From Antedon mediterranea (taxonomy: Eukaryota > Animalia > Echinodermata): DNA of 64,000 nucleotides. Shown here piece by piece: positions 11,092 to 40,502 of the stretch. Within the stretch, counting starts at the first letter, position 1. Each line of letters starts with the position of its first letter. The notes under the pieces were generated by a model that saw only the letters and a program-made list of their open reading frames with translations, did not search any database and was not told the DNA's origin. A program made the translations under genes and the position numbers. The stretch lies in NCBI RefSeq assembly GCF_964355755.1, contig NC_092678.1:8882422-8946421 (forward strand), read 5' to 3'.

Positions 11092-14000
11092 ATGAAGTAT
11101 ATAATCTTACTCGTAACTCTGTTGGCTGGAACTGCTAATTCAGAAAGTTTGTAACAATCTTTTATCTTACTGTATTGTTTTAAGCTAATTAAAACATTTA
11201 GTATGATTGTATGTCATATCTTTATGTTGTTTATATTATTTTAATGCAATGTGTGCTGGACTCTGTATTTTATGGCTACAAAGATTAGATACATTGTATG
11301 GGTAGTATCAGGGAAGAGTGAATGGTAGTATTAACTTTGTTTAAGTGATATTAATTAATAATGAAGTAACATTACCCTTTATATAGTACCTTTACAATGA
11401 TCAAAAAGTAAAAATAACCAGATATGATTCCAATAATTCAATCTGTAACTGGATATAGATTGATTACATATCATATCACACGTAATAACTATCGTTAAGT
11501 TTGTCAGAATGACACCATCTGTGAGAATGGAGCAAGTTGTGTAGGAGCACTGCGAAGTACAATATATACTTGCCAGTGTACATTTGAGTGGCAAGGAATA
11601 AACTGCAATGAACCTTTAATACAGTTCAATATTCGAAGTAAGTACATTTTATTAACATTATTTAAATACTTTACAGTTTTAATAAATAATGTTATCTATT
11701 TTTTTTTTAATATGCCTTTTCAATGATACATAATAGTTATACACTTTGACACAAAATTAAATCGCGAAAATATATATACCAAAATACTGTAATTTAAGGC
11801 AAAACATAATTGATTTTTGGCTAAATATATCTGTTTACTTCTTATAAGTGAAATCAATATCTGAGTTTTTCTATCTAATTAAATAACTTTATCACAAATT
11901 CAAAATGGCCTATTTAAAATCTGATTTTAATAATCTTCTTGCGCTGTTCATGTTTTCGGAGACAATACATTTTTAATCATTGCTGTACCATTCTATTCCG
12001 CACTTTTAACATTTACATTTATTTATAGGTGATGGTTTTTGCGGATACAATCAATATGAAGACCAAGGTGTTATAGAAAGTCCAAACTTTAACAACTCTG
12101 ATACGTACGAAAACAATCTGGAATGTTACTACCTTGTTCGTGTCCACAATGCTCAACAAATTACATTTACAATAGAATCTTTTGAAACAGAAGTAAGTGG
12201 CTTACCCTTTTAATAATATAATATACAAGTTGTTGTATTACCGACGAATTACCAAGATGTAACATGTTTCAAGTTCATGATCAGAGGCGTAGGCCGGTTG
12301 CTTTCTGGGTTGGGGCGATGGGGGGGGGGGAGATGTGAACACAGTAAATGTGAAACTACGCCCCTGATTCTTAGGCCTACCCCTAAAGGTCACGTCATGT
12401 CAGTGCAGCCAATATGTAAGGCGCTCTCTTATCTGTCCACACGTCAGTGGCTATGTTAACTAGCACACCGGAGCAACCTCCTACTCTTCCCGAAAGATTA
12501 CTAGGCTTTGTTACACTAGATTCTCGTACGGTATTAATGATAATAGTTTGCTACATCTATTTCTGTTTCACATGACTTACTGTACATATTTCCTGGAACT
12601 TGAAAAACACCTTTTAACTCATAAAATAACTACAATTACAATCAAGACACTAAGAACTTAAATGTTTTATCATTATATCAATTGTAGATTAATAAAGATT
12701 ATCTGGAGTATGGGCAAGGATATTCCAAGAGCAGTGATTATTATTTTCTGGAGGGTAATATTTCTTCCGCTACCACCTTTACTATCAATGGAAGCTACGC
12801 GTGGTTTTACTTTTTTACTGACTTCAATATGCAGAGAGGCGGGTTCTTCATCACGTATATAGCAGGTAAAATGGTCACTATTAATATAAAATGTTGTATT
12901 AAAGATGTCGATGTAGGCCTACATTTTGATCTTATTAATGATGGGATAGTGATTTGTCAGCAATTAATATCAAAATATACATCTTATTGATATTACAGAT
13001 TATAACGAGGACAGCTATGGTATAATGTAAGCCTGGCCTATAGTATTGAAAGAATGCATTTATGAGTTATCTGGTATAAATAATTTTAAGAGGTGAAAAT
13101 ATGACTTTTCATCTTTCCCGAATGAAATTATTTGTACCATAGCACGAATATAAAAACATTTATTATTTGTGTTTAGTATGTTCATCGTCACTCGCGACAG
13201 GGAGATCGATCTTATTATCTAATTATTATCTTATTATCGTGGAGGTCACCAGTAGTTCCGGGTCTTCAACCGGTTAAGAGTGATTCACCACGCTCTCGCT
13301 GGAGTATGCGCAAAGTAGCGTTGTTATGGTGTCGTGTCGTTATGGGGGTTGGGCTGTCCGGCTTCATCCGGGAAAATAAGGTGATTGATAGGGAACATAC
13401 TTTTTACCATGTGATCCACAATCTTCCAATCAAATAACAGGAGCTCTTTAAGTAGTAAACCAATACTAATTGTTAATATATACTGTATCATGACTATTTT
13501 GTAATATTTACTTAACATTTTTTGAAAACCTGGACAGTTATTTTAACTCCCGTCACGCCATCATTGGCCTAATAGTTTAAATTTATCAATCTCGATCTAA
13601 CTAAAACTTATTATTTAATTTCACAAGACTGTAAATAAACCACAAAATGACTTTTCAGATATAAATGAATGTGGATCCAATCCATGTGAAGCTGGTGAAA
13701 TATGCACTGATGGAAATGGAACGTACACGTGTACATGTCCAGAAGGCACCCAAAGACCTGGATGTACACGTAAGTGCTCAACCACAGATTCTAATATGCA
13801 GTACTTATTTTATAGTTTCGCATGCGCTTGCACACGGTTAGGCTGATTGTATTGTAAAAATTGTCTAGTTAACAGTAGGCCTAATTATTAAATCGAAGCT
13901 ATAAACCTCCCGAAAAGAAAGGAGGAGCTTTTTAAACACCGAGTCAAAGCAGGGAGTTGTAAAATAAGTCCCTGGTCAAAGTTACGCTTACTACAGTTTC

Positions 14001-16103
14001 TCTTGTTGCCAAAATCGGAATCCGACACCAATTTAAAAATAGCTTATCATTAATTTTACTGTTAATATTAATGTGCGTATACATATTATATCAGTGACGT
14101 CAGTAACTGATTAAATGCATAATTATTTTAGCCTGTACAAGTGAAGGATGTCATAATAGATTGCGATTGAAGTGTGCAAGTGATGGAAGAACTTATCGAA
14201 ACAGATGTTACCTGAATCACGCCGCCTGTCTTGATCCTACTATCAGGATAATATCACGTGGACCATGTAGAAGCTTTGGTAAAACGACAGGCAGATAGAT
14301 AATCATTTTCCTCTGGAGTTATATAACAAACTGACATTTTAAATAAACACAACAAAATTCTATTTTAATACCATTGAATCAGAGACATATATTAAATAAT
14401 TGTGCATCATTCCCATGTTTACGATATCATGCAAAGGGTAGAGAAAAGAAATGTAGCGCCCTCTTAAAGATGTGTTGTCCCCCAAAAACATGAAACATGA
14501 AGATTAATTAATTCAGACTTTGAATATTTTATTTTGTAGTTTTAATAAAGGTAATCACTTCCATAGAAAAAAAACGAAAAATATAATGTGTTCACTTGTA
14601 AAATAACAAAATAAATGGTTCAATTCAATCAAAAATCTATTAGTAGCAAATTTGACAATTTTTTGCTTTAAACTACATTTTTTTCAGGTAAATACATTTT
14701 TTTTCTCGATCCAATTTTTTGTCAAAATGGGTACGTAACTATTATGTTACATTAAAATGGAGTAGGCCTATTCAACAAAAATTTGTTTTAAGAATTATTT
14801 TTTCAGGGCGACAATACATCTTTACGTTAAAAAACATATACAAACTGCATTTACTTCTCTTGCCAGATGCTAATTTTAATGGAGTATGCCATTCTAAAAT
14901 CAAGATAATTTAATAATCGTTAAAGATAATAAGACATATGTTCAAAAATACTTTTCTTTCTCTAGGTACATTTGAAGTAATAGGAGGCCCTCGCATTTGT
15001 TTGGGAATAGAAGACAGTAGTAGTAGTGAAAGTTTTGAAAGAACAATTTGTCCACCCACTCAAGGTAATTCGGACTATGAAAATGCCTTTATCTGCAAAT
15101 AATTTCATAATTAAATTATTTGTACCATTGCATTATTTGTTTGATAACACACTTAATATGATAACAGGCGAAACATATTCTAAGGCCTAGCTATGACTAC
15201 ATGGGCTTGGTTAGACTACATAGGCCTAGTTAGACTACATAAGCCTAGCTAGACTACATAGGCCTCACTAGACTACATAGGCCTAGTTAGACTACATAGG
15301 CCTCACTAGACTACATAGGCCTAGTGCACCTGGCAACTGAAACTGATCTGATGCAAATTCTGTTTCTAGTTCTTTTATAATTTTTCCCATTGATTAATAA
15401 CAAAAATTATACGATCTGAAGCTAATTTTAAAGTGCATACATATCGCTCGATAAAAACGGTTCTAATTTAATAGTATTTTAACAAGAAAAATAGATGACG
15501 CCGCACAATATGTTTTTTAAATGAAAAAATAGTAGGCCTATCACACAATACAATGCGTCTAATACTACCGTCAATTGAACGCCATGTGATCCAGTGACAA
15601 GCGTCTAACAGTCAAATGACAAGAAATATTTAGGTGATGTGTTATATATTTTATTATCATATTACCTAATGTTTGTTGAGATATCTATATTAGTCTATTT
15701 AGAAGATTTATTTCAGATTTGACTCAACAACGTTAAACACTGCCTTTTTATGTTAGATAATTATTACTTATGAAGCATCCATTCATTGTTTCTTATTGAC
15801 ATTGCTATTTTTATTATTGTTGCTATTGTTATTATCATTGTAGCACCGACGAGTGAAGCAACAACTGTGAATGATATGCCTACTACCACAGCAACTGAAG
15901 CAACAACTGTGAATGATATGCCTACTACCACAGCAACTGCTGCCATTGTATGTCAAAATGAGTGCCCTCTTTCATTTGAGCCCTTGTGTGGCGGTAATGG
16001 TGTTAAAAACACAACTTTTCCAAATATATGTGTATTGGAAGCTATAAAGTGCAACAATGACCCAGAATTAACTGTTATACACGAAGGTGAATGTATAGTT
16101 TAA
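11092..16103 (+). CDS. Gene B: fibropellin-like signal-EGF-CUB-EGF-Kazal-Cys/Ser loop-Thr-rich-Kazal protein (about 383 aa)
   Basis: Exons: 11092-11146 (signal MKYIILLVTLLAGTANSE), 11500-11637 (EGF), 12029-12192 and 12688-12865 (CUB: CGYNQYEDQGVIESPNF...ECYYLVRV...FETE/INKDYLEYG...WFYFFTDFNMQRGGFFITY), 13659-13769 (EGF DINECGSNPC), 14132-14278 (Kazal), 14966-15064 (99 nt), 15844-16103 (Kazal, stop). Phases are consistent, total 1152 nt. Confidence 0.85.
15195..15325. repeat. 19-bp minisatellite (GACTACATAGGCCTAGTTA), about 7 copies
   Basis: Direct tandem units in the last intron of gene B. Confidence 0.85.
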
Positions 16104-16661
16104 CGCTGACAACATATTACTGTATGATTTTTATTCATTTCTATGTGTGCCTATTATAGGAATATATCAATGAACATTTTTGTTTAATTAACGTTAAAAT
16201 ATTAAATCAAGTATAAATTTATTCAACCATATCAAAATAATAAATTCTAAACATGTGTACAAAAATATTGGCGAGGGCGATTATAAGAGAGAAGCTCGTT
16301 TTGCGGTCACCACCCATGGTGCTGAGACACTACATAACATAGTGATACTATTATTATAAACTCGATTATATTTCTTTTGAAATGAAAATAATTAATTGTT
16401 ATTAAAATAGTCTATTTTAGGTAATCTCAACAATAACTTATTTACTGACACTTTAATAAAATCTATATAGTATACAGTTTTTCTTTTGAATAAAACTAAA
16501 TAATATTCTCAATATTTCTATTTTTTAAATATAATAATACCACATTTATATAGCGCCCTTTTCGTGAGTAATCATGCTCAAGGACGCTTTACATAGTACT
16601 AAATGGTAAATAAAAATAATCAGTAAATATAGGCCTACCATAACCAACCAACCATCCCAAC

Positions 16662-17954
16662 CTCGCTTCGCTCGCGTACCATCTAGGTCGTGCCCACAGA
16701 TGGTTCTCGAATACACAGTAATTTCAGGGTAAAAAATCTGCCGATTTCAAATGCACGTACCGCAGGACTATAATAATACATTGTCGTTTACAGAAACGAA
16801 TAAGTAGACACAATGATTTATGTAGTCAAACAAAATTAGCACCCTGGGAATTACTTCCGAAAGAGAAACTTACCACAAAATAAGTCCAAATTGTTTATTC
16901 ATTTAAAGAAACCCAATTAGGGTTGAGGGATTGGAAAGAGGATAGGTACAAAGAAGAACAATTTTTAAATATATTCTTTATCCACATCAGTAACGAAATA
17001 TTGTTTTCATTTTTTATAGGCCTATAAATAATATACCACTAACGGTGACTAAATATAGTAAAACATTTGCGATTTAATACTTTGTTAAAACTGTCACTGT
17101 CATAGTCGATTGAAATAGTAAAGTACATGTAACGATACACCACTACGACGTTTATATTTTTTGTAATTATTAATTAATGCAAACGTTGAGAAGCAACTGT
17201 CAGTAATAAAGTTTATTTGTATATTACGTGTGTATATATCTAACAGTAGAGCCTACCCATAATCACAGTAATAAAGTAAATACTAACAGTATTCACAGTA
17301 AGAAATGTTTGTATATATCTTTTTACATCTAACAGTATTCACAGTAAGAAATGTTCGATTCAAATGACAACCAAAAATGGTTAATAGGTAGGTATTTGCA
17401 GTACTGTATTGTCAAAGTATTGCAAGTTTATTCTCCAAGGGCTCATAAATTTACCTACTTGTGTTAAACAAAACTGGCAGACTGAGAGATTGGAATGTTC
17501 CATTCATCGCAAATCAATACATTTGTAAAAACGTAAATTAAATCTATCAAAATAGTATTTTTTAAAGAAAATCGGCCTGTCTTCAACATTATGATACTGT
17601 ACTCGAGCAGTTCAACCGGTTTTCAGCTATTAAAAACAATTATCGTAGGAGGAGATAGGAAAATGCGAAGCGTCCTCGTATTATTGTGTGCGGGTATTTT
17701 TCAAGTTGGACATCCATTAGACAGTGTATACCACGATCGAAAAACACCCCTATTTGGGGCAAATCGTTGAACCTAAATTCGTTTTAATTGTCAATAACTA
17801 ATTATCTAACTCAATTTAATTAGTAAACAGGGTTACATCAGGTGGTTAAAATCAGTACCGAAAGTACGAACCAACTTTATATACCATCGAGTAAAAATTC
17901 TAGAAGTAAGGCGCGATTTACCGAATTTTGCCCTTACGTAAATCTATATATAGA
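16662..17954 (-). mobile_element. Non-autonomous Helitron (copy 2, inverted)
   Basis: Reverse-complement match to copy 1 over several hundred bp at each end. The 5' TC is at 17954 and the 3' hairpin near 16662-16686 is incomplete. Confidence 0.85.
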
Positions 17955-18644
17955 TTATTACCCCGGTCATTATTTGGATGGTTGGTTATGGTAGGCCTAC
18001 ATTTACTGATTATTTTTATTTCTCTCATAGGCATGTTAAGTAGAAGTAAGTAGACTAAACTATACCTGGACATGTATATCAACCCATCGTGATTTCATAA
18101 TTTGATTAAGAAATATAAGTCACCGGAACAAGACGTTCGTTCATTTGAATTGTTAACAAAGTTAAGGTCAACTGGGATAAACCACCAAGGTCATACATTA
18201 TGTAAAACATAACAATATGATAATATTACAACAACGTACTTGACATTGAAACTGAACGCTGAATTTAAATGTAACGTTTAAAAACATAAACTACGAATGA
18301 AACTACTGTATAATAAGAAGGAATGTACTCGGTTTATTGACATTTTATAAACTTTCGAATAATAGTTTTCGCTTAGGGTCATCGCTTAGGGTCATCGCTT
18401 AGGGTCATCGCAAAACTACAGAACTATGCCTGATTTTAAGTAGACGATTTAGTATTATAAATGATTTGTTATAGTTTTTAAAAATGCATTTTAAATATTT
18501 AACACTTTTTTTATTTGGACACTGACACTCATTGTAATGTTGGGGTTATTAATGAATATGCCGTGCTTGTATTTTTTCTTCTGTCTGAATTCATGTTCTG
18601 TCTTTGACTGAAGAAGGTGTCATGTGTAATGAACATGCTGTCTT

Positions 18645-19030
18645 GCCATAAATAAAATGAATTACATAATTCTTATTTTTCGTGAATAATAGAGATTATC
18701 CACCACCTACAGTATACCTAGTCAAAGTCAATTTTGAAGGTTTATATCAACGTCACTATTAACAAGGTCATATACATGGCTGCAGTCGCGTGCTGAAGTT
18801 AGTGTTTACCGACCAACCGACCGACATAGTAAGCTGTAGAGTCGCGTTGCCCGCAACTAATCCCCATAAATAAATCGAATTGCATAATTCTTATATTTCG
18901 TGAATAATAGTGATTATCCACCACCTACTATATACCTAGTCAAAGTCAATTTTGAAGGTTTATATCAACGTCACTATCAACAAGGTCATATACATGGCCA
19001 CAGTCACGTGCTCAAGTGTTTACCGACCTC
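18645..19030. repeat. Tandem duplication of about 217 bp that includes HINE-like element pieces
   Basis: GATTATCCACCACCTAC...GTCAAAGTCAATTTTGAAGGTTTATATCAACG occurs near 18694 and again near 18912. Confidence 0.85.
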
Positions 19031-19529
19031 AAATCGGATTAGCTTTTTGCAGCATATGTGCTCACTCAGTTTTGTTTTTATTTATTTCCAAAATATAGTA
19101 TAATTTACTGGCTGAAATTCAAATAACAGCGAACAATTATGGCTATGCAGAGCCCATGTGTTGCGATTTTAATAATAAAACTCTCTTCAAAATACACAAA
19201 GTAAAACTGAGTATTATATATTATTAGAATTGACAGTAGGAAGGTCCCCTGAATAGGATGTCCTTGTCCAAATATCAATTTGACGTAATATAGTTCGCAT
19301 ATTTGACATACAGTACATGTGTCATTTATGAAAAATGTTCTGTATCAAAATGTAATTTTCAGGTCCGAGAAATAAAAAAATATTATCAGGTAATACGTCA
19401 TCTGATTTCATTTTATTTGTCTTGTTAAAAGGGTAGAACGCATTTTTTTTATATTAAATTTGTATTTTTTCAAAAATTATAATTCATAATTTTGGACATT
19501 GACATTTTGGTAGCTAAAAGAATTATTGT

Positions 19530-20030
19530 TATTTATTTGGCAAAAGTTCATAAAAGTACATTTCACAATTCATCTTGCCAGGAGCAAGTAGGCCTAATAG
19601 GCATGAGCCCAAACAGAAAACTGCTCTTACTCCATCATTACTTATAAAATACAAAAGTAAGTAAGCACAAATTAAGTAAAAACAAAACAAAGTTATAATG
19701 ATACACCAATTAAAAATAAGGTGCATTGAATAAACAATTACAACTTAATATTTTGAGATCAAATGTTTGGAGTTGGGCTTTAACGTCTGAAATTGTGGCA
19801 CATTGTTTAATTTCATTGGGAAGTTGCTCCCATAATCTAGGGAAAATAACAAACGATGAATTTAAAAATGTATTGGTCTTAGCCTTCCAATGTATTAACC
19901 GCCCTTCACACCTCTTACTTGATTTCACAAACTCATTAAAGGATGAGGGACAGAGGCCATGTATTATTTTAAAACCAAATGTGAGTCTAAACACTTTAAA
20001 TATATCTTCAAAAGTTAAAATATTCTGACG
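19530..20030 (-). mobile_element. LINE (CR1/L2 group) 3' fragment
   Basis: The ORF FKIIHGLCP...NSSFVIFPRLWEQLPNEIK is typical of the C-terminus of CR1/L2 ORF2. Confidence 0.7.
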
Positions 20031-20345
20031 TTCTTAATAATAATAAATAATTATAAGATTATCCTAAAACATAATTATACTTCTTCCAATTACTAAACAG
20101 CGGAGGTGAAAGCTGGTTTTATTGATTATTCGTTTACACAAATATTTAATGCAAACTAGTAATAGATGTATTGTGGTCAGGTAGAAAATTACTGTCAAAT
20201 TGTCACGTATGCTTTGCTTACCGTCACGGGGGCTTAGTAACTTAGGTTGAGATAGCTTCCTGGAATCGGAAGCTGTTCTGACGTTTTTAAGAAACGGATA
20301 TTTAAATACAAGTTTTGAGAAGAATACAAAACAAACATCTCTTAA

Positions 20346-20744
20346 ACTTGAATCAGTAGACCTACTAAGAAATCAACAATCATCGACTTGAATCAGTAGA
20401 CCTACTAAGAAATCAACAATCATCGACTTGAATCAGTAGACCTACTAAGAAATCAACAATCATCGACTTGAATCAGTAGACCTACTAAGAAATCAACAAT
20501 CATCGACTTGAATCAGTAGACCAACTAAGAAATCAACAAACATCGACTTGAATCAGTAGACCTACTAAGAAATCAACAATCATCGACTTGAATCAGTAGA
20601 CCTACTAAGAAATCAACAATCATCGACTTGAATCAGTAGACCTACTAAGAAATCAACAATCATCGACTTGAATCAGTAAACCTACTAAGAAATCAACAAT
20701 CATCGACTTGAATCAGTAAACCTACTAAGAAATCAACAATCATC
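20346..20744. repeat. 40-bp minisatellite, 10 copies, directly upstream of the gene C start codon
   Basis: Unit ACTTGAATCAGTAGACCTACTAAGAAATCAACAATCATCG, copies nearly identical. Confidence 0.95.
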
Positions 20745-20762
20745 AGGTAGCACGCAGTACTA

Positions 20763-23700
20763 ATGAAGAAGACATCTACGAAAATGAGATCTTTGAGTAT
20801 TATATTATCTTTATCTATTCAGGTGCACATCGCTATTGGACAAGGTGGGTGATTGGACATCAATTATTATTAATACTTTCAGACAACTTATTGTACTGTA
20901 TGTCATTCAATAGGCCTACTACTAAATTTTAACAGTAAAATACAAAAATGTTGTTTCTTTCTAAACCATCCGTAAACATATATTTGGGAAAAATTAAACG
21001 ACGGTTCGTTTTTATTGTTATGTTATGCATAGGTTCTTTGATCTGATACAAAAGTGTAGCCTTACACACATTTAACTGTGGATATTTGCTTTCCAAAACC
21101 ATCCGTAAAAGTATGATGGAGCTTTTATTTTATGTGATGTATTGCTACGGTTGTCTAATTTGTAAATCGTACTATTATTCACCATATGGAAATAAGCTAC
21201 CAAGCTTCTATAAATGTATTTCTCTGTGTAATCTATATATAAATTTTAGATAATTAGTTATTGATGATTTAAATGAATTTAGGTTCAACGGTTTTCCGAT
21301 CGTGGTATACACTGTCTATAATGGATGTCGATGCTGAAAAATACAAGGATGCTTCGCATTTACCTATCTCCTTCTACGATAATTGTTTTATTAGCTGGAA
21401 ACCGGTTAAACAGCTCGAGATCAGCTGCATCAAAATGTTGAAGACAAGCCGATTTTCTTTAAAAACTACTATTTTGATAGATTTAATAATACGTTTATAA
21501 AAAAGGATTGCTTGGCGATGAATGGATCTATCGGTTCCCCAGTATAAGTATTTGGTATAACGCACGTAGGTACATTTATGAGCCCTTGGGGGATAAACTT
21601 AAAACCTTTGACAATAAATACACATAAACCCTTTTTTTTTTGGCTATTTTAAGCGCAAATTTCTTGTGTGGGGGTACAAATAAACTTTATTACTAGCAGC
21701 TGTATTAAATCGCAAATATTTTACTGTGTTTAGTGCAGTATATTATTTATACAACACAAAAGCGAATATTTCGTTACGGATAAAGGATATATTAAAACTT
21801 TTCCTATTTTCCAAATAAATTCAAATTAAATCAAAATGTTATTTCTACAGATTTCAATGCGTGTGGTAACCCTAATCCTTGTCAAAATGGAGCAGAATGT
21901 ATAGGTATTGTCACAGGCGATTACACATGCCAATGTCTCTATGGATGGGCCGGGAAGGACTGTGAAGTGGCCACAAGTAAGTATTTACATTTATTTCTAG
22001 AAATCTCTCATGCTATTATATATATTTGAATAAGTAATTTTAAGAATTGTTTGTGACGTCACTTTATCGGACTAGGATGAAAGAATGTCTAAATTCCTTA
22101 ACATGTGAATTTATGGTCATTGTTTATCTTGCGCAGTAAAAATTGGCCTCAAAATATCTCGAATTTCTTTCAAAACGCACTATAGACTTCTATCTAATTT
22201 GATAAATAATAAAATACTGATATTATAACATTAAACACATCGGCGGTAATATAAACTTCTATGTCGGGTGCATCAAAACTAATTAAAAGCTTTATTTAAT
22301 TATGTATTTATAATTAAAAATTAGAAGAAGCATGGAGTTTGCACTCTTTCTTCATGTTCGAAAACGGAACTGTCGCGAGAGGGCGTGCGAACTAGGAAAT
22401 CTATAAACGAAAAAAAAATAATTTTCTAATACATTTCCTACTATGGGACTTTGCTTAACTCACTACAGTATCTTGATAGAAACCATGGCAAATAGTTATT
22501 TTTTAGAAGATAATGAAACATGTATTAACGAAAGTTGAATCCAAGTTACTTAGGCCAACATAAGAATTTTGAACGAGTGCTGGATATTCCAATCATCATA
22601 TTCTCATGATTGGCCAGGTTCTCAAAAAGCGCGATTACGGAAATAACTGAACATGACATTCGGGGAAATATTCTATACTATAACTGTACCGACCCTACGA
22701 TTTTAAGTCAGCAGCACATATTAGGTCTACAATAAAAAATAATTTTAAATATTATTTTTTTTTTTGTCTTGTGTGAGTTCATCTCACGTTTATTTAAATT
22801 CTCATTGGTGAATATATTATATACATATAAGTACATTTGTGACAATTAAAAGTAAGTGTTTAAAGTAGTTAAAATACAGCTATATTTACATAATAAGATA
22901 CTTGAATTCAGTATTAACCATATTTGTTTTCATTAAAATTTTAGATACGATGTTAATTAAAATGTAAAAATGAAAAATGGTGGTAAAATACATTATCAAA
23001 ATTTTCTTGTTAAACTATCTTATTTGTGATCTTATTTGTGTTCGAGTAGAGAGGCTATAAACTCAGGGGAGGAAAATGTAGTATCCTCCCTTTTCACCAA
23101 GATAAAAAGGATGAAATGAAAAAAGAGGAATGCAAAAGTTTGAAAGTTAGATATTTAGAATGATAGCATGCAATGATATATTTAATGAAAACCTTAAGGT
23201 TAGAGTCCATACACTGTGCAAGTCCAAGATGCGATTTTGGCTCTGTGCGTATGTGAGACGCTTCATACCCGATGTCACCTTGGTACAACTACTACTTACA
23301 ATTTGTATTTACGATATAAAATATTGAAAATATAAAAAAAATATATATATTGGACAAATACAAATACATGCAGATAACATTGACATGTATACAATATGAA
23401 TATTGCAAATATAGAAAAATATATATATATTAAAAAATAAATACCAATAATTACAGATTTCATATAAGTTATTAAAATTGTCTAAAAACATAATCAAGAG
23501 TTACATTTAAAATCACTTGAAATAAAAAAGGGCTACACATTTATATTAAACTTATACAGCATATGTCACACTAATATAAAATACAATTGTAGATAGAGAT
23601 CTCCAGCACATATATATTTTAATTATTCAATAGGTCAAATATCCTGTCTTTACTATTTTTCCATTTCTGATCAGCAGTATAAAAGTTATGCGAATACTCA

Positions 23701-26700
23701 TTATTTATGAGGTTTATAATTTCATTTTTAAATAGCCCCCAAATATTTGCAGATTCTTTTTTTTTCTGTCGTTTCTAGTTCTTTATATATTATGGAGGAT
23801 TTATATATACAAAAAGTAAAAACTGAAATTAATTCGTTTACAAGTTTGTTTGTTGTTCCCAAAATTACATTACCCACTTTGGAATGTCTTGCTGTACTGT
23901 AATCTCATTTGGAAGACACTGAACAACCAGCATATCTTTAAACTTTTTCCAGACTGGTTGAATAGTTTTACATGCCATTAATAAGTGTTTTTCATTTTCT
24001 ATATGATTCTTATACACTTATTACATTTGTCTGTTGTGGATAATTTCCATCTTTTAAACAGAGCGGATTAATTGAATACTTTGCAACAATAAATGCAATA
24101 CCTGATATATGGAAAGAACAAATAAGGTTGGAAAATGCACGCATAGATATACAATTAAGAGAACATAATATATTTCATAATAGGATAAGATCGTCTTACT
24201 ATTATAAGCAGTTTATAAATGATATATGCATTATTCCAAATCCTCAAATGAAATGGGAAGTAGAATTTAGAGATGAAATCATTGACTGGAATGAAATATG
24301 GAATAGAAAAGTATGTAGAATGAAACACATGGAAAGTAGCTCAATTTAATTTTAAGTTGTTACATCGAATCCTTATAATTATGTAATTTTAAATATTAAA
24401 TGAATAAAATCAATTATACTCATGGAGTATAAAATCTGTTTGTATTAGGCCTAAATTAATCAATAAAAGAAATAGTTTTATCTGTAATATCAAATATATA
24501 CAATCAGCCAAAAGCCAAATATCCAAGTTTAACATACTGCTAAACTATTTTCTCAATGACATGGTTTACTGAAGGGGGACAGTTAAGGATAACATTTTAA
24601 TATACACATTTATCTTGGCATAATAATTGATAATTGTTTATGTCTTAAGTTGTTAAGTTAATTTACTTTTGCTTAACCTTTAGATCAAAATTGCGGTTAT
24701 AATTTATTCGCAAGAAGTGGAAATCTAACAAGCCCTAACTATCCGGGTAACTATAGTAACAGTGATGAATGTCATTACTATGTACGTGTCCATGGTGCTA
24801 AGCAACTAACATTCACTGTAGAGATGTTTGACACAGAGGTACGTAAAATCGAATTCAAACATTTTAAATATGCAATGGCTTAAAAGTAATAGTAGGCCTA
24901 ATAGCGCAACAATAAAAATAATAATGAAACTTGTCAATAAATCCTTCTCCTAAACGTTCCTTAACTAACAAATGAAAAGAGCCATACCCTACTACATATT
25001 GTGCTCAGTCAAGGCGAACTCTTGTCTGGACATGGAAATGTGCACATTTTTGATGGCACTAAAGTTTATTAAATTGATGGTGAGATGCTGAATAGGAAAG
25101 TTTGCTTGTCCAAAATTGCCCTCTTACACTAAAAATCTCTATACGACACCAGAAAACTCATAATAGGAACTATAAAACTGATGTTAGTGTTCCAATTTAA
25201 AATTAAAACCAGCCATAGCATTATTTTAGGTGTGAAAATTAATAACGTTAATATGCAGTACTTGCATGGAGATTGCATCCATCCTTACACTAAAAATGTG
25301 TAAAAAAAACACCACTCAATAAAACAGGATCAAAATACTAACTAAACTGAAGGCCATTGTACATTTTGAAACTGTAAAAATTTAAAACCTGAGCTGCAAT
25401 ATGTTAACACAACATAAAGGTCTGTTTGAATTTTTGTACACAGATTTTACTACTATTATTAAACTTAATATTATTCATATTTTCTAATTGTAGTTTTCAA
25501 AAGATGTGTTACAGTACGCCCCTGGTGTTCGATGGAATTTTAGTGCAAATACTGCACTGGACGGAAACTTGACAACAGTTCCAGGGCAGTTTACAGTTGA
25601 AGGAAGCGACGTGTGGTTCGTTTTTGAATCCGATAGAAATATTGTAAGACCAGGATTTTTAATATCTTACGTAGAGAGTAAGTACACACCAGAATAATGT
25701 TATTATACATGAATTAACGTCATTTTTAAACGATAAATTTAACTATATTAGCCTCCATGAATGCACAGCCAATAACAAATCATTTCATATCCTTGCTGCC
25801 TATCATTGGTTGATATCTTATTACGTTTATTACTAAGTTTGTTAATTAAACAGTAAAGGTACTTTTATATGGTTGCATTAACAACCAGCTCACTTTTATT
25901 TTTTCTGTAACGCCGTCTATAAATTGTAAAAATATAAACAGATTGCAGATTTATTTTATTATTTTTTTAATGTGATTGAAAAATTGTTTAACATAAAAAG
26001 TAGTCTTTCAGACAATGATTTTTTTCTTTCTATTCTGTTTTTTTTTATAAGGGAAAGAATTATTTTTGCTCGTCTTTTTAGTGGACGCGACTCTATAGTT
26101 CACTATGTCGGTCGGTCTGTCGGTCTGTCTGTCGGTCCGGTATCACTATGCGTTTTATCGCTTTCTGACCTTATCTTGATATCAGTCAATTTTTCACAGT
26201 ATATTCCTTATGGCTAGGAATCGATGTGGTTATGTTTTCACGGTGCGCAATAAAAAATTACGCGGTCTACTCACGATTTAACGAAATCACGTTTGTAATC
26301 ATATCTTCACAACCATGAATCACAATTAAATAAAATTTGGTACTCATAAATTTCAGGGCATAAATCATCATATGGCAATACAATTACGTGCGTAGCGCAT
26401 GTAACGCATTCGTACGCGCGCTTAAAATTTTCAAAATTTATTTTCGATGAAATAAGGGTACGTTTCAGGCAATTTTAAGCGTTTACAAAATTGCCATGAG
26501 TACAGGTTTTTGCGTGCGCGTCAAATGTTATCTCACACTCTTTTTGCCCGATTTCTGTTTTCTTGACTTACTTTTCAACTCGAAATTACCTTATACGAGC
26601 ACGTCAAAAGTGACAGGCTACTCACGTGTAAATTAAAAAAATATAAATGATTTTAAACATTTCAACATTTTTAAACATGTTCAGTAATTTCGGTCAGTTG

Positions 26701-29700
26701 GTAGGTTGGTCGGTCGGTCGGTAAACACTAATGAGCACGCGACTGCAGCCATCTATATGGCCTTGTTTTTGCTACAGAAGTGAATAACAGTAATCAAACT
26801 GTAAAATGGCCTATTCAAAGTATGATTTTATTAAAACAATATTGTAATTTACTGATTTCTATAGTTACAAAAATAAATATTTTAACAGTCAATATTTTAT
26901 TTTGATTAGCTAATCCAAGTAACTGTGCATCAAGTTTGTGTCAAAATGGTGCAGTTTGCACTGATCTTACAAACGGATACTATTGTGACTGCCCAGCAGG
27001 ATATGAAGGATCGAATTGCGAGATTGGTAAGTTTGTTCTTTTACATTGAAACGCACTTGAATTAATATCAATCAACATTTCAACTCTTCTCATACTACTC
27101 GTTTTCTTCACTCTAGTCTACCTCACTCACACTCTCACTCGCTCAATCTTTTCATCTTAACGTGTCTTCCTCTTCTGTGCTTGACATTAAAACTGCCCTT
27201 AAGATGTAGGCCTAACCTATAATTTATTACACTTTTATTAATTATTATAATAACAATAACAATAATCATAATAACAATAATTACAATAATTTAAAAAATA
27301 AGAGTAATGACTATAATTTTTATATGTTTTAAATGTAAATATGTTTGTATGATGTAGTATGTTTAAGCGGATATTGCCCTTGATGGTATTTGCAGCAATA
27401 AAGAAATTGAATTGAATTGAATTGAATTTTAAAACAATCTACATAGAGCATTACTGTGTATGTTCAAAGTGTATAATTAAATTTAGTGAATTATTGTTCT
27501 TCTTTCAGACACTAATGAATGTGAAGGTGTTGTGTGCACAAATGGTGAAGTGTGTGTAGATCGTGTAAATGGTTACGTATGTCAATGTCCATCAGGATTT
27601 ACCGGTCCAAATTGTGCTGATTGTAAGTTATTTTTAATGTTCGATGAAAAAAAAATAAAATACAAATATTATAAAATACCAGCTAGTGTATTTGATTGGT
27701 TTGATTTTGTGTAATATATAGTGGTATTGGTCATTTTGTCCCATTACGGCAACAGTTTTGTCCAACAGCCGGCTAATTGCCATATTTCAAGATTTTTGTA
27801 TAAATGACAAATACATAATATAATAAATAATATAAATGATGCGACATCGAAAAGAACTTATTTTAATGAAGTAGTTTGTATTTAATTACAGCATGTATGA
27901 ATACAAATTGTCCAATTCGTCTTCGTCCAAAATGTGGCAGCGATGGACAAACTTACCGCAACAGATGTTACCTACTAAACGCTAGATGTATGGACCCAAG
28001 TTTAACTATGGTTTCAAGAGGTGCATGTCCTGGAAGAGGTACTAATGACATTGATTTGTTTATGAATCAACGGTCATTCATTCATTTATTTTTATTCACA
28101 AAATACTCAGTTTTTAATCCTGGATTATTAACATTTACTTTGCTTTTAGTATAATCTCTTTTGTAGATTAACTTTATAATTTCAGGAGTTATCCAGGGAG
28201 AGAATCTATTTTTTATTCTTGAATTTTTTATAGGCCCATGTTTATTACTTAAATTTAGAAAGCAATTTTTAAACGTACCCCATGCATTGTCAACGTTATT
28301 AATATTGTGAATATTTTGTAATTTCTGAGAATGGGAAATATCATGTAAAAATGCACCTTCATCAAAGTTGTTATAATCTCTATAATATATTGTTTTATGT
28401 TTAGCTTCTTTTTCCTTAAATTTTAAACAGCTGTAAACCATAAAATGGTCGCTTAAAGCTATTTTAGCAACACCACTTAAATAGTACTGATCTGGAATTG
28501 TTGTTAGTATCAAATCAATACAACTTGATGAGTATGACGTAACTCTTGTTTAATCATGAATCAACTGGGTCATTACAAACATGTTTTCGATCATATTGAT
28601 AGGATTTTTCGAGAGGTTCTCATTTAAGACATAATCAATATTAAAATCGCCGAGTAGTACAATTTCAGTGTTTTCCATACTAACTTTTTCAAGTAAATCA
28701 ATAATTAAGTTAAAATATTCATAATTTGCCTTTGGAGGGCGGTATAAACAGCATATTAAAATATTTTGAATTTTTGTCCTAATAGCTCCAGCCCTACAGC
28801 CTCCAGATCATTTACATATAAATCAGATCTTTCTTTATAAGATATGGTATTCTTAATATTTAGGGGATACCCATATTAAAGAATACATACCTGTGAAACG
28901 AAAAGAAGAACCCGGACACACATCGCGTCGGTCTTAGATATATTTCATAGACACACACACATAAATTATTTAGCATCATAATACAATAGATTTTAATGAT
29001 GCAATAATATTAGTTAAAATGGCAATACAATGTGCGTATACACATGCATTTCGCAATTGTCACGGTGCATTTATTTATTTTTGTTGTTAAAGGACCTATC
29101 GCAATCATTGGTGGAAACCAGCGCACGTGTATTACAGGTGGGGATAGTGACAGTAGTGATTCAAGCATCGAATTTACTCAATGCCCTGCAGGTATGTAGA
29201 TCACAAATAACTTATTCTATCAGTTATTCTATCTTTCAACTTACACTTAAACCCAGTTACATTTAGTACCAGTTTCCGTTTCCAGTTAATCGAATTATTG
29301 ATATGGTGATGATATAATCACTTCTCTTTTTTTTTCTTTGTTATATGTATTAATTATTCTTGTGAGAGTACTGGAACCTCTGTGCAAAAACCTTTTTAAA
29401 GTAATGTTTTGGTTATGTACTAGAATATCTATGTCACACCATCGCCTGTGATAATGATATTTCAGCACTCCACTTCCAATGTGTAGATTATCTGCTGTAT
29501 GCAATGTTTTGCTGAAACGAAGAAATAAAAAAGTCTTTTATTTACTATTATAGTAGTAAAAGGTGTAAGTATTAAAATAAACAAAAATAAAATAAATATA
29601 TTTCTCAGCAACGACCCACATTTCACCATTTAAAAAATATAGAAGTCGATTCCTCCTAACTAGTAGTAACATTCTGAATAAATAGTTTTTCCTTCTTTTT

Positions 29701-29948
29701 TTGTAGAAATTACTACTGCACTACCAAATCCGATTGTGACGAATACTCCAACTCCAGAACAGTGTATTGATAACTGTCCTTTAATTTATGAACCTGTATG
29801 CGGTAGTGACGGACAGACCTATCCAAACCTTTGCAAATTAGACGTCGTGAGATGCTTAAATGACCCAGCACTAATTGCACTTTATGTCGGAGAATGTGTT
29901 GTTATGACAACTCCTTGCCGTGGAGATTGCTCGGCAAATGCCCCATGA
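20763..29948 (+). CDS. Gene C: fibropellin-like signal-EGF-CUB-EGF-EGF-Kazal-Cys/Ser loop-Kazal-CRGDC protein (about 421 aa)
   Basis: Exons: 20763-20844 (signal), 21851-21976 (EGF), 24684-24838 and 25494-25677 (CUB: NCGYNLFARSGNLTSPNYP...FDTE/FSKDVLQY...DGNLT...FTVEGSDVWFVFESDRNIVRPGF), 26910-27026 and 27509-27622 (EGFs), 27892-28038 (Kazal), 29093-29191 (99 nt), 29707-29948 (Kazal, stop). Phases are consistent, total 1266 nt. Confidence 0.9.
21232..21800 (+). mobile_element. Degenerate Helitron copy 3 in intron 1 of gene C
   Basis: Starts A|TCTATATATAAATTT and has collinear patches matching copy 1. Confidence 0.7.
23520..24375. mobile_element. L1/Tx1-type LINE 3' fragment with an internal inversion
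   Basis: The plus strand at about 24062-24375 encodes KWE...IDWNEIWNRK...AQFNFKLLHRIL. The minus strand from about 24060 encodes the following Cys/His region: KRWKLSTTDKCNKC..IENEKHLLMACK..QPVWK. Confidence 0.65.
26075..26770 (+). mobile_element. DINE-1/HINE-like element (long form)
   Basis: T-run at the start, ACGCGACT motif, (GTCG/GTCT)n microsatellite, 3' GCACGCGACT, hairpin GCCATCTATATGGC, then a T-run. Confidence 0.7.
28082..28860 (-). mobile_element. LINE ORF2 apurinic endonuclease fragment (CR1/L2 group) in an intron of gene C
   Basis: Motifs CLYRPP, LLGDFNID, CIDLILT, SDHFMVY and PWITPEI. Confidence 0.85.
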
Positions 29949-31630: not shown

Positions 31631-34600
31631 ATGATGGCAGTCATAAGGATGAACATTTTATTTTATGTTTTGACGTTTTTGATGTTGTCCGATGCTCATA
31701 ATTATAAAGGTATGATCTCTCTTTAAAAATCCTGTTTATGTCTTCAAAACATTAATACTGTATGTTATACTTCTGTTCATGTTTCTTGAATTAATTTGTC
31801 TCTAAACTGAAATGTAAAAAAACGAGGCCTGCATAACGAATATATTAATGTATTTAATACACCAATATCTTGTATTGGTGAAACTGTTTTCTTCCGTTAG
31901 AAATGTATGTATTATTTTGAACTGTATCAAATATATAATATTATATACAAATTTGTGGCTTTATTTTGTATTGTTTTCACGGCATGATTTACCAAACTTA
32001 AATTAGTTCTCTAGAAAATTGAAATTATTCTATCTGGCCTTCCAAAAAAAGTATTATTTAATTATTATTATTATTTTAAATTATAATGGTATATTTAGGT
32101 ATTTAACATTTCATACACTAATTTTAATTTCTCTTAGTAACCGATCCTAGATATTCAACTATCGCTACCTCATTCTCGAGGTACGGTAGTTTTTAACATG
32201 CACGATTGTACTTCATGCTTATATTTAATCAATACAAAGAAATGACAATTAACAATTATTTTAACATAAACTGGTTATAACATATGCAATAACATGATGT
32301 ACATGATTAATGTATTGACAGGTTGTAGGAAGAACTGTCACAGCAGAAGTTCTCCAAAATGTGGAAGTAACGGTGTGACGTATCTAAACAGATGCTATTA
32401 CATGAATGCAAGATGTGATGACCCTTCGATTTATATTGTTAGTAAAGGAGAATGCCAACAGTCAAGTAAGAGCAACTTGTATTTATTTAAATGTTATTTT
32501 GATTGATATATAATATTACCCGTGATTAATTATTCACGTTGCGCAATATAATATTTTAGTAATCCGTTTGATAGGCCCATATAGAATTATTTTAAGCTCC
32601 ATGAGTATTACATTCTATAAACTGTAAATATGGTATTCTATATACTGACATTGTTTGCTAGCCGACAGGCAATAATAATATCATGAATGATTCCTGATTT
32701 CTGCATTAACCTGATCGGAGGAAAAAATAATACAGCCGTCTTCTCTTGGCCAAGAAAAACAAATAGACAAATTATTAATACAACAAAATAATACAAATAT
32801 TTTGGGGAAAAAAAACAATTACAATATCGAAAGAAGTTACAAATTTGCTGAATTTTTAGAGTGAAATATTCGAATAGTTTAAATGGTCTATATCTATAAT
32901 AATGGTGACGGGAATGGAGATCCGTAAATTAAAGTATACAGTACAAATCAATAATATTGTTAAATTGAGTAGTTTGATAAGATTTGTACTTAATTTTGGC
33001 CAACTTAAAGTTCACATTTTTAAAATTATGTTACATGTGGTGGTGTAGACCTCTCACAACCCTACCCTTGAAATCGGCTTGGCCCATTGAAAATTTAAGA
33101 TTCAAATATCTTTTTAATTTGACACAACAGCAATTATAGAAAATAATAATAATTTGATTGTCAGAAGCAAACTAAAACACTGTATGACGACTATTTTATT
33201 TTTTAACATAAATACAAATAAATTAAAAATATAATTTTTAATAATTTAAAAGAAAAATAAGAGAGAAAAGAAAAAGAGAATTTAGGTATAAACAATTCTC
33301 GAAACTTACAAAAAGAACAAGGTCCCTTAAATCTGAGGGAAGACCATCCCAACGTTTACAGCATCTATGAAAGAGTGAGGATTGGAAACAGTCCGAGCAA
33401 AGGGTTGCCTGAAAAGAAGATCAAATGTGTGACGTAATATAGGAAAAAAGAAGGAAGAAACATCATAATCAATAAAACTTAATGTTTATGTTATTCAATT
33501 GATTCCAAATTGGAACTTTGATACCATTTTTACTTTTCTATCTATATCGGGTCTATATTCTAAAAATATTCTTTTCTCGGCCCCAACCAACACCCTCTCA
33601 GTCACTACCATTTCCACTGAAAACCAGCATCCACCAGGTCCAGGTGTATTCCACATTAGTCTCTCAAACTTTTATACAATTAACGTAATTAATTGGACCA
33701 TCAAATGTATGGTTACCAAATTCGACACCTTCCATTAAACTAGTTACATACCTGGAGTACCGTAGTATTCCACGTGCAACACATTTCAGTTTGACATATC
33801 CCAGAAAACAATATCTTTTCCTAAATCTATACTTTAGCCAAATGTATATATGCAAAAGAAGTTAACATGTTTAGCATTACAAAATAAGATTGGTGGAAAT
33901 AATTACAAGAAAAATTTATTACAAAAAAACGCCGCTCACTAAGGTCGTCGACACGCCGTTTAGAGGAAAGAATGTTTTGACAATTATTCAATGATAAATT
34001 GATGGTATTTTTTATATCCGGCTTCCTTCGACAGCTAGCCTACAACAGACAGACTATACTATAGCTGTCAGTGTCAGTCTGGTGCACACATTTTACACTA
34101 TACATATAGACTTTCTGTTACCTGACGTGCTTTGGGTCGTAGTATAGACCTATAAATTAGTCGAGTTTACACATTTTTCAGTTCTGTCAACTGTAGTACT
34201 AAAGCTTCGCGTGTGATAACTAACTTCTTCCTAATACTCTGGGAATATAACTGCCTAAAGGCCCGGCACGAAAACTTGTTTGGGTAAAGAAAAATAAGAG
34301 CCTTGAAAATGACAAAGATTATCCGTATGAATTCGGATAACAAATTATTATAAAAATATTTCGAGTATTTTATATTTTTGTCATGGTAAAACACTAGGTA
34401 TCTTGATGACTGTCACTCAAGCCCAGTAATGTATGATTGTTGGTGATTTTATTGCCAACTTTCCTTGTATCGCCAACCGTAAAACTATTTCCTATAATGA
34501 TATTGTAAATATCAACCAATTATATGGCAACATTTCATTATTGGTGTGTTAGAATCTAGTACACTATGATCTGAAGGGAAGCGTGTTAACCAAAAAGCTA

Positions 34601-40220: not shown

Positions 40221-40502
40221 CAGCTGTATCACAGAACTATCAAAAGAAAAATTAACAAGAATCACAGATCACAGTATCTCGGAATCAGGTGGTTCAAATA
40301 CACCAAATGAATACTATTTAAAATTCCTTGCATATTTTAAATATTACTATTTAAGTTAACAACGCGTTGTACGTATGAATATGTATATATTATGAATATT
40401 ATATTTATTTATCATTTATTATTTATCATTGTCTGCAATTATTACCATTTCCTTGTCGTTTTGTCATTTTATTAAATAAACACATGTCTATTTTTGTTCT
40501 AG

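What the first reader, a model, noticed from the sequence alone, without database searches (positions are those of the whole stretch)
11092..29948. Fibropellin-like genes ending in a Kazal cassette instead of avidin
Seen: genes B and C splice to signal-EGF-CUB-EGF(1-2)-Kazal-loop-Kazal. Known: sea-urchin fibropellins (apical lamina ECM) are signal-EGF-CUB-EGFn-avidin. The CUB here (CGYN..., SPNYP, F.TE..KD, GNLT, WF.F.SDRNIV..GF) matches my recollection of the fibropellin CUB closely. Inference: a phase-1 exon shuffle joined the fibropellin N-terminal module to a Kazal cassette that also exists alone next door (genes D and E). The result would be a matrix-anchored protease inhibitor or adhesion protein, an architecture I do not recognise as described.
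Basis: partly seen in the sequence, partly recalled or inferred. Interest (0 to 1): 0.85.

Follow-up and report, generated by a model that had tools for sequence, protein, structure and literature searches.

The report
Feather-star fibropellin heads with Kazal tails
Two neighbouring feather-star genes join the front half of a sea-urchin embryo-coat protein (fibropellin) to a pair of protease-inhibitor-type domains and a serine-rich loop; counterparts of both exist in a second feather star, and the proteins likely work as matrix-anchored, calcium-binding protease guards, which is untested.

Summary
Genes B (383 aa) and C (421 aa) splice cleanly to signal-EGF-CUB-EGF(1-2)-Kazal-loop-Kazal. C is identical to an uncharacterised Antedon mediterranea RefSeq protein, and one intron-less contig from a probable RNA run shows all 8 of its junctions. 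B's EGF-to-Kazal junction is supported indirectly. Orthologues of both lie on one scaffold in Anneissia japonica, auto-named 'fibropellin-3-like'. Their CUB groups with sea-urchin fibropellin-3; tolloid and cubilin placements are rejected (AU p 0.0005 and 0.001). They lack avidin, so they are fibropellin-headed proteins rather than fibropellins. 'Kazal replaced avidin' is not shown: the same head carries a transmembrane tail in another crinoid protein, and the order of events against stand-alone genes D and E is unresolved. New here: Kazal-1 is always strongly basic, Kazal-2 is mostly acidic with P1 Leu, and the 99-nt loop exon is a Cys-bounded serine cluster ending in S-x-E, the Fam20C kinase motif. 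Most likely role: a matrix-anchored phosphoprotein and protease guard at the skeleton-matrix interface, like the Kazal phosphoproteins of urchin teeth. Function is untested. Not found in ten literature searches. A new variant of a known kind, of moderate interest.

The parts
11092..11146 (+). Gene B exon 1: start and hydrophobic signal peptide (judged by eye)
   Evidence: not covered in run X1
11500..11637 (+). Gene B exon 2: EGF-1
   Evidence: Pfam EGF E 0.0037, under cut-off; X1 depth fits splicing to the CUB
12029..12192 (+). Gene B exon 3: CUB first half
   Evidence: Pfam CUB 6.9e-09; joined to the next exon in an X1 contig
12688..12865 (+). Gene B exon 4: CUB second half
13659..13769 (+). 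Gene B exon 5: calcium-binding-type EGF
   Evidence: depth fit 6.15 vs 6.15
14132..14278 (+). Gene B exon 6: Kazal-1, basic (net +5)
   Evidence: Pfam Kazal_2 1e-07; X1 contig
14966..15064 (+). Gene B exon 7: 99-nt loop, two Cys around a Ser cluster with S-x-E
15844..16103 (+). Gene B exon 8: Thr-rich stalk (2 x 42-nt repeat), Kazal-2 (acidic, P1 Leu), stop
20763..20844 (+). Gene C exon 1: start and signal peptide
21851..21976 (+). Gene C exon 2: EGF-1
   Evidence: Pfam EGF 3.2e-07; junctions
24684..24838 (+). Gene C exon 3: CUB first half
   Evidence: Pfam CUB 2.6e-10
25494..25677 (+). Gene C exon 4: CUB second half
26910..27026 (+). Gene C exon 5: EGF-2
27509..27622 (+). Gene C exon 6: EGF-3, calcium-binding type
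27892..28038 (+). Gene C exon 7: Kazal-1, basic (net +5), follistatin/agrin-like
29093..29191 (+). Gene C exon 8: 99-nt Cys-bounded acidic Ser loop with S-x-E
29707..29948 (+). Gene C exon 9: Thr/Pro stalk, Kazal-2 (acidic, P1 Leu), short two-Cys tail, stop
31631..35877 (+). Gene D: stand-alone signal-Kazal1-loop-(Gly/Asn/Asp-rich)-Kazal2 (exons 31631-31709, optional 32151-32180, 32322-32465, 34651-34749, 35204-35877)
   Evidence: 3 junctions in X1
40503..42018 (+). Gene E: stand-alone signal-Kazal1-loop-Kazal2 (exons 40503-40563, 41024-41170, 41286-41384, 41759-42018)
   Evidence: no reads laid on it
5387..7248 (-). Gene A: divergently oriented cluster member, signal-degenerate Kazal-acidic/Thr-rich-Kazal2 (P1 Leu)
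   Evidence: no reads laid on it

Best explanation
Genes B and C are spliced feather-star genes that carry a fibropellin-type EGF-CUB-EGF head on a Kazal-loop-Kazal tail, and their products likely act as secreted, matrix-anchored protease guards whose serine loop is likely phosphorylated and would bind calcium at the skeleton-matrix interface. Steps: (1) shown: gene structure, one transcript for C, fibropellin-type CUB, orthologues in Anneissia. (2) Predicted: secretion, from the hydrophobic N-terminus. (3) Inferred: the head binds a matrix partner through its CUB and calcium-binding EGF; without avidin it would not oligomerise the way fibropellins are reported to. (4) Inferred: Kazal-1, basic in all six copies and closest to agrin, ovomucoid and follistatin domains among solved structures, binds sulphated glycans or the phosphorylated loop rather than a protease. 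(5) Inferred: Fam20C phosphorylates the disulphide-closed Ser cluster, giving a compact Ca2+/calcite-binding patch. (6) Inferred: a Thr/Pro-rich stalk holds out Kazal-2, whose P1 Leu fits a standard-mechanism inhibitor of chymotrypsin-, elastase- or subtilisin-type proteases.
For: Structure and expression. Orthologues XP_033120074 (C) and XP_033120064/66 (B), both on a 376,009-bp Anneissia contig; B and C CUBs each pair with their orthologue (100/89 and 100/98). Kazal-1 net charge is +4 to +8 in 6 of 6 copies, against 0 of 90 Kazal domains from six other proteins reaching +4. Kazal-1 is 64-73% identical between orthologues, Kazal-2 52%. The loop exon is 99 nt in B, C, D and E, and has a Ser cluster ending in S-x-E in 6 of 6 copies against 86 of 10,293 background blocks (pattern written after seeing the loops, copies related). 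Kazal-2 has P1 Leu in A, B, C and E (P1 numbering recalled). Analogy: urchin tooth matrix holds secreted Kazal proteins with acidic Gly-rich blocks under consecutive gene numbers Glean3:17587-17590 (PMC2614417 section 11), some of them phosphorylated, with a FAM20C-like protein in the same matrix (PMC2830187 passages). Kazal proteins also occur in brittle-star and sea-star skeleton proteomes, one listed with CUB, sushi and Kazal (PMC4336488, PMC5460417 passages). Fam20C targets S-x-E (PMC5824888 passage).
Against: There are no data on tissue, protein, phosphorylation or inhibition; run X1 carries no tissue label. The skeletal link is an analogy: homology to the urchin tooth Kazal proteins could not be tested because the supplements were unreadable. 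Fibropellin did not occur in the main text of the urchin-tooth or brittle-star proteome papers. Kazal-2 is not constant: the Anneissia C model ends after the loop, the Anneissia B orthologue has P1 Thr, and D has P1 Ala with an insertion. An Anneissia B isoform skips Kazal-1. Kazal-like domains of agrin and follistatin type often do not inhibit proteases (recalled). In Anneissia C and gene E the loop is only weakly acidic.
Confidence: 0.4

Rival explanations
1. They are components of the crinoid apical lamina or adult cuticle, the fibropellin compartment, adding protease resistance to the outer coat against microbial or hatching proteases.
For: The CUB sits in the fibropellin clade. Fibropellins form the apical lamina and their flanking domains aid assembly (PMC10336842 passage). 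P1 Leu would suit bacterial subtilisins (recalled). No avidin-bearing crinoid fibropellin turned up among the 17 hits, so these could fill that role.
Against: They have only 1-2 EGFs after the CUB, against 7 matched in S. purpuratus fibropellin-3, and no oligomerising avidin domain. A longer crinoid EGF-CUB-EGF9 protein (P0078) is a closer structural match. This reading does not explain the conserved Ser loop.
Confidence: 0.27
2. They are adhesive or cement proteins (larval attachment pit, egg brooding on pinnules); phosphoserine and Ca2+ cross-link the glue, and the Kazal domains protect it.
For: EGF-rich, CUB and Kazal proteins are enriched in an anemone adhesive disc (PMC6626399 passages). 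Fam20C is discussed for tube-worm cement (PMC12621633, search listing only). The protein has a basic domain next to an acidic, phosphorylatable loop.
Against: No localisation. The phosphorylatable stretch is short (3-5 Ser) and not repeated, unlike bulk glue proteins.
Confidence: 0.12
3. They are follistatin-like growth-factor binders: EGF followed by Kazal-1 mimics a follistatin module that binds heparan sulphate and sequesters TGF-beta/BMP ligands in the matrix.
For: Follistatin is among the best PDB matches for both Kazals. The Atlas structure search lists tomoregulin and follistatin, all at TM under 0.5. Kazal-1 is basic.
Against: The EGFs are full six-Cys Notch-type EGFs in separate exons, not follistatin N-subdomains. 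Scores are ordinary for any Kazal. D and E have the cassette with no EGF.
Confidence: 0.08
4. They are secreted immune or wound-response proteins of the coelomic fluid, regulating serine-protease cascades as complement CUB-EGF proteins do.
For: CUB-EGF heads dock MASP/C1r/C1s, which are the nearest Atlas and Foldseek classes, all at generic scores. Tandem Kazal clusters are common in invertebrate immunity (recalled).
Against: The CUB groups with fibropellin in the trees; MASP/C1 CUBs were not in them, and their profile scores are weak (44-57 bits) against 151-174 for the fibropellin group (that profile was built from the group, so the gap is inflated).
Confidence: 0.1
5. The fusion is a gene-prediction artefact: read-through between a fibropellin fragment and a Kazal gene.
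For: B's key junction is inferred from depth arithmetic only. B's protein was not among the hits.
Against: All 8 C junctions are seen in X1 at one depth. Neither half has its own stop or signal exon. The fusion is modelled independently in two paralogues in two species.
Confidence: 0.03

Closest known systems
Sea-urchin fibropellins (S. purpuratus fibropellin-3, P49013 = P0157; Lytechinus orthologues)
   Same: Signal-EGF-CUB-EGF order; CUB 44-48% identical and in one clade (99/87; 83/80); second CUB disulphide absent in all 9 (also absent in 98 of 242 other CUBs).
   Different: 1-2 EGFs after the CUB instead of 7 or more; no avidin domain; Kazal-loop-stalk-Kazal tail; localisation unknown.
Anneissia japonica 'fibropellin-3-like' XP_033120074 and XP_033120064/66 (automatic RefSeq names)
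   Same: Orthologues of C and B: CUB 69% and 60%, Kazal-1 73% and 64% identical; same loop exon; same scaffold.
   Different: The B orthologue has a duplicated EGF-CUB-EGF-EGF head and an isoform without Kazal-1; the C orthologue model lacks Kazal-2. Not characterised in any paper found.
Anneissia 'fibropellin-1-like' XP_033121758/59 (P0078)
   Same: Same fibropellin-type EGF-CUB head.
   Different: Nine further EGFs and a hydrophobic, likely transmembrane, tail; neither avidin nor Kazal.
Sea-urchin tooth-matrix Kazal proteins Glean3:17587-17590 and 22278 (PMC2614417, PMC2830187)
   Same: Secreted, apparently clustered, one or two Kazal domains with acidic Gly/Ser-rich blocks, phosphorylated; gene D resembles this layout.
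   Different: No EGF or CUB described; Ala/Pro-rich blocks; homology to the crinoid cassette not testable here.
Kazal-type inhibitors and follistatin/agrin Kazal-like domains (ovomucoid, rhodniin, Anemonia-type elastase inhibitor 1y1b, follistatin, agrin)
   Same: Six-Cys Kazal pattern with six residues between Cys4 and Cys5 in 10 of the 11 domains tabulated (seven in E Kazal-1); PDB matches.
   Different: Fused to a fibropellin head; basic and acidic domains paired around a Ser loop; activity untested.

Membership tests
Fibropellin | Signal peptide, one EGF, then a CUB (C1s-like) domain at the N-terminus | tested here: met
   (signal peptide judged by eye; no predictor was available)
Fibropellin | CUB belongs to the fibropellin lineage, not tolloid or cubilin | tested here: met
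   (best non-crinoid hits are fibropellin-3); 99/87; 83/80, AU p 0.0005 (tolloid) and 0.001 (cubilin); no echinoderm tolloid/BP10/SpAN CUB was in the set
Fibropellin | Long run of EGF repeats after the CUB (up to 21, PMC10336842 passage) | tested here: not met
   1 in B, 2 in C
Fibropellin | C-terminal avidin-like domain | tested here: not met
   no PF01382 hit in P0001, P0002 or P0026, present in P0090; no tblastn hit in the window
Fibropellin | Forms the apical lamina of the embryo | not testable with these tools
   needs localisation
Kazal-type serine protease inhibitor (MEROPS I1) | Six-Cys Kazal domain above the Pfam cut-off | tested here: met
   all four Kazal exons of B and C exceed the Kazal_2 and Kazal_1 gathering scores
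Kazal-type serine protease inhibitor (MEROPS I1) | Canonical reactive loop: 7 residues between Cys2 and Cys3 with a usable P1 | tested here: inconclusive
   spacing met; P1 Leu in Kazal-2 of B and C, Asn and Ile in Kazal-1; the AlphaFold model is below pLDDT 50 over Kazal-2
Kazal-type serine protease inhibitor (MEROPS I1) | Inhibits a serine protease | not testable with these tools
   needs an assay
Follistatin/agrin/tomoregulin (FS-module proteins) | Ten-Cys follistatin module (FOLN subdomain plus Kazal) | tested here: not met
   no FOLN or FST_N Pfam hit in P0001 at E 1e-5 or in single exons at E 0.05; the EGF before Kazal-1 is a separate six-Cys exon
Tolloid/BMP1 and cubilin | Astacin protease domain or a long CUB array; CUB groups with them | tested here: not met
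   single CUB, no protease domain; AU tests reject
Fam20C-substrate biomineral phosphoproteins | Secreted, with S-x-E clusters | tested here: met
   6 of 6 loops; motif only
Fam20C-substrate biomineral phosphoproteins | Phosphorylated in vivo and present in mineral matrix | not testable with these tools
   needs phosphoproteomics of crinoid ossicles

The most novel reading that the evidence does not exclude
The fibropellin EGF-CUB head is an ancient echinoderm docking module that took on different tails in different classes (avidin in urchins; transmembrane and Kazal-phospholoop tails in crinoids). The crinoid Kazal form is a dedicated skeleton-matrix protein whose 99-nt exon encodes an undescribed disulphide-closed phosphoserine 'mineral clip', which would make this cluster the first identified crinoid stereom matrix family and link embryo-coat and skeleton matrices.
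Probability: 0.15. Interest if true: 0.7.

Novelty: new variant of a known kind. Interest (0 to 1): 0.4.

Why it matters
Crinoids are the sister group of all other living echinoderms (established knowledge), and none of my searches found a paper on their matrix Kazal or fibropellin proteins. The cluster shows that the fibropellin head is a portable module and that the avidin tail is not a fixed part of it. That bears on how the urchin apical lamina arose. It also gives specific, testable candidates for crinoid skeletal or cuticle matrix: a basic Kazal, a Fam20C-type loop and a P1-Leu Kazal. Domain shuffling of CUB, EGF and similar modules in echinoderm matrix proteins is already recognised (PMC5460417 passage), so the kind of event is ordinary even if this product is undescribed.

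Tried and rejected
No genome is held for this window, so I could not look for an avidin-bearing fibropellin elsewhere in this species. The look-up of sequencing runs listed no run on record as RNA; X1 is RNA by the tool's guess and by its intron-less contigs. B's signal exon had no X1 cover (no inference drawn). The whole-protein search of 50% representatives was swamped by EGF-repeat proteins (150 listed of 18,751), so it cannot show absence of the architecture outside crinoids. Atlas searches gave no hit at 0.9 or above (best 0.86 and 0.77). The AlphaFold model was poor (mean pLDDT 56, pTM 0.35, residues 308-421 under 50); its Foldseek hits were generic CUB and EGF proteins. The Kazal-cassette tree could not order fusion against loss. 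The missing second CUB disulphide is a weak character (also absent in 98 of 242 other CUBs). A search of the window for leftover EGF, CUB or avidin exons near D and E found none. Six look-ups of earlier findings returned nothing that bears on this. Yanai 2005 on the avidin domain is not held (title seen only in a reference list). The seven .doc supplements of PMC2614417, which hold the tooth-protein details, could not be read and may bear on the homology question. No complex prediction was run: the host protease is unknown, and a Kazal-subtilisin pair would pass by likeness to solved structures.

Full report
Observation. I rebuilt the genes from the sequence. Gene B (11092-16103, 8 exons, 383 aa) and gene C (20763-29948, 9 exons, 421 aa) are open from start to stop with GT-AG introns. 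All domain junctions are phase 1, and the intron inside the CUB is phase 0 in both genes. Stand-alone Kazal-loop-Kazal genes D (31631-35877) and E (40503-42018) follow, and a related gene A lies on the minus strand (5387-7248).

Is it one transcript? Searching with C's second CUB exon returned 2 proteins of 11 candidates: P0001, an uncharacterised Antedon mediterranea RefSeq protein (XP_071960596.1), and an Anneissia japonica 'fibropellin-3-like' protein. P0001 equals my model of C letter for letter. In run X1 (RNA is the tool's guess) all 8 of 8 junctions of C appear, each in one contig at depth 149.6, the depth of a 1,573-nt record whose listed pieces run from exon 1 to the last exon. The DNA-like run X2 shows none of them, which argues against a retrocopy. 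The EGF-Kazal junction is the predicted 27622/27892 with one synonymous change. For B, one X1 contig joins the CUB exons. The 13769/14132 joint was not among the rows shown, but a spliced model of two contigs overlapping by 30 nt reproduces the bin depths on the EGF2, Kazal-1 and loop exons, where an unspliced model fails. One bin of 12 is under-predicted, and B's first exon is not covered. B's own protein was not among the 17 hits.

Conservation. Anneissia has an orthologue of each gene on one 376,009-bp contig. XP_033120074 matches C (CUB 75/108, Kazal-1 32/44 identical), and its model ends after the loop. XP_033120064/66 matches B (CUB 63/105, Kazal-1 28/44, Kazal-2 23/44), with a duplicated head and an isoform that skips Kazal-1. 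Of 186 proteins held, 46 had a CUB, 20 a Kazal and 5 both: gene B, P0001 and three Anneissia records. The searches are word-based or swamped by EGF repeats (2 of 11, 3 of 36 and 17 of 7,993 candidates; 150 of 18,751 listed), so restriction to crinoids is suggested, not shown.

Is the CUB a fibropellin CUB? Against 253 non-redundant CUB domains (12 redundant isoform or near-copy proteins dropped), B and C score 93-110 bits with urchin fibropellin-3 (44-48% identity) and at most 69 bits with anything outside the group. In a 71-row tree (the 9 group rows, the 30 best-scoring others, and chosen tolloid, cubilin and other rows), the five Kazal-fused CUBs form a clade (98/88). They join three urchin fibropellin-3 CUBs and an Anneissia EGF-CUB-EGF9-transmembrane-like protein at 99/87, with two starfish CUBs as sister (99/93). 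In a 26-row tree the same groups appear with weaker, unstarred support (82/92 and 83/80). AU tests reject grouping the Kazal-fused CUBs with Ciona tolloid-like CUBs (p 0.0005) or with the cubilin-type set (p 0.001). No echinoderm tolloid, BP10 or SpAN CUB was in the set, and the alignments have only about 120 columns. B and C each pair with their Anneissia orthologue, so the B/C duplication predates the split of the two species.

Membership and history. Fibropellins are described as up to 21 EGFs flanked by a C1s-like domain and an avidin-like domain, the flanks aiding assembly (PMC10336842 passage). B and C meet the head criteria but have 1-2 EGFs and no avidin, so they are not fibropellins. 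'Instead of avidin' describes them but is not a shown history. The same head ends in a hydrophobic tail in Anneissia P0078, the starfish sister proteins have no avidin hit, and the only avidin-bearing members I found are from urchins. Whether D and E are donors or reduced copies is open: the cassette tree gives the fused genes 43/33, and D with C is not rejected (p 0.34). No leftover EGF or CUB exons lie near D or E.

Kazal-1 has net charge +4 to +8 in 6 of 6 copies, while 0 of 90 Kazal domains from six unrelated multi-Kazal proteins reach +4. Its P1 varies (Asn, Ile, Ser, Arg, Lys, Asn), and its best PDB matches are agrin, ovomucoid and follistatin. Kazal-2 is acidic to neutral, with P1 Leu in A, B, C and E, Thr in Anneissia B and Ala in D (P1 numbering recalled). 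The loop exon is 99 nt in all four Antedon genes and holds two cysteines around a serine cluster ending in S-x-E in 6 of 6 copies, against 86 of 10,293 background blocks. I wrote that pattern after seeing the loops, and the copies are related, so this shows conservation and gives no probability. S-x-E is the Fam20C motif (PMC5824888 passage). Gene E's run of three serines and two glutamates matches the casein phosphate cluster (recalled). A Thr/Pro-rich stalk precedes Kazal-2. The CUB shows Glu and Asp at the positions I recall as the calcium site (read by eye), and the last EGF has a calcium-binding consensus in B and C.

How it most likely works. Shown: genes, transcript of C, CUB ancestry, orthology. 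Inferred: a secreted matrix protein anchored by its head and by the basic Kazal-1, carrying a phosphorylated calcium-binding loop, and presenting Kazal-2 as a tethered inhibitor of chymotrypsin-, elastase- or subtilisin-type proteases. I place it at the skeleton-matrix interface (0.4) by analogy. Urchin tooth matrix contains secreted Kazal proteins with acidic Gly-rich blocks under consecutive gene numbers (PMC2614417, section 11 read). Some are phosphorylated, and a FAM20C-like protein is in the same matrix (PMC2830187 passages). Brittle-star and sea-star skeletons also hold Kazal proteins (passages). Against this: there is no localisation or activity; homology to the tooth proteins is untested; fibropellin is not mentioned in the main text of two of those proteome papers; Kazal-2 is absent from one orthologue model. 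Rivals are apical lamina or cuticle (0.27), adhesive (0.12), immune or wound response (0.10), growth-factor binder (0.08) and artefact (0.03). The structure model, Foldseek and Atlas added nothing beyond the domain calls.

Novelty. Ten searches of the held library found no description of this architecture or of these crinoid genes. Four of them bore on other questions, and most subscription journals, including the original fibropellin papers, are not held. I saw passages only of PMC10381214, PMC5460417, PMC10336842, PMC9325501, PMC6626399, PMC2830187, PMC4336488 and PMC5824888, passages plus section 11 of PMC2614417, and only listings of the rest. The proteins are in RefSeq under automatic names. 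Shuffling of CUB, EGF and similar domains in echinoderm skeletal proteins is a recognised pattern (PMC5460417 passage). Verdict: real, conserved in two crinoids, a new variant of a known kind; interest 0.4.

Noticed in passing
window 5387-7248 (-): Gene A: a fifth cluster member, divergently oriented, with signal, a degenerate Kazal, an acidic/Thr-rich linker and a P1-Leu Kazal; the open model is 235 aa, and its second exon boundary is a guess.
   Followed up: partly
window 32151-32180: A 30-nt phase-1 mini-exon candidate in gene D; the X1 contig skips it (joint 31707 to 32320).
   Followed up: partly
window 35204-35877: Gene D's last exon has an acidic Gly/Asn/Asp-rich tract with an 18-bp repeat (7 copies) before Kazal-2, the closest layout to the urchin tooth Kazal proteins.
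   Followed up: partly
window 41759-42018: Gene E Kazal-2 has an insertion of about 11 residues between Cys5 and Cys6; E Kazal-1 is the most basic (+8) and most divergent.
   Followed up: partly
window 20346-20744: A 40-bp tandem array (10 copies) ends 19 bases before gene C's start codon; the X1 contig for C begins at 20689, inside the array.
   Followed up: no
window 39062-40221 and 44873-45271: Minisatellites of 53 bp (22 copies, just upstream of gene E's start exon) and 36 bp (11 copies).
   Followed up: no
window 52189-59290 (+): Multi-exon gene that looks like an SLC6 sodium:neurotransmitter symporter (motif recognised from memory, not tested); a possible synteny marker for the cluster.
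   Followed up: no
window 61749-62315 (+): A 189-codon open stretch with a helical-looking, leucine-rich sequence; not identified.
   Followed up: no
window 724-1150, 17447-17960 (inverted), 21240-21540; 2620-3700: By eye: dispersed copies of a transposon-like repeat, and a direct duplication of about 520 bp.
   Followed up: no
window 28085-28549 (-), 47925-48488 (-), 24044-24346 (+): Open stretches resembling LINE-type retroelement fragments (judged by eye), two of them inside gene C introns.
   Followed up: no
P0153/P0026 (Anneissia XP_033120064/66): The B orthologue has a recent internal duplication of the EGF-CUB-EGF-EGF head (the two CUBs nearly identical) and an isoform that skips the Kazal-1 exon.
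   Followed up: partly
P0078/P0154 (Anneissia XP_033121758/59): A crinoid protein with a fibropellin-type head, nine more EGFs and a likely transmembrane tail: a third ending for the same head.
   Followed up: partly
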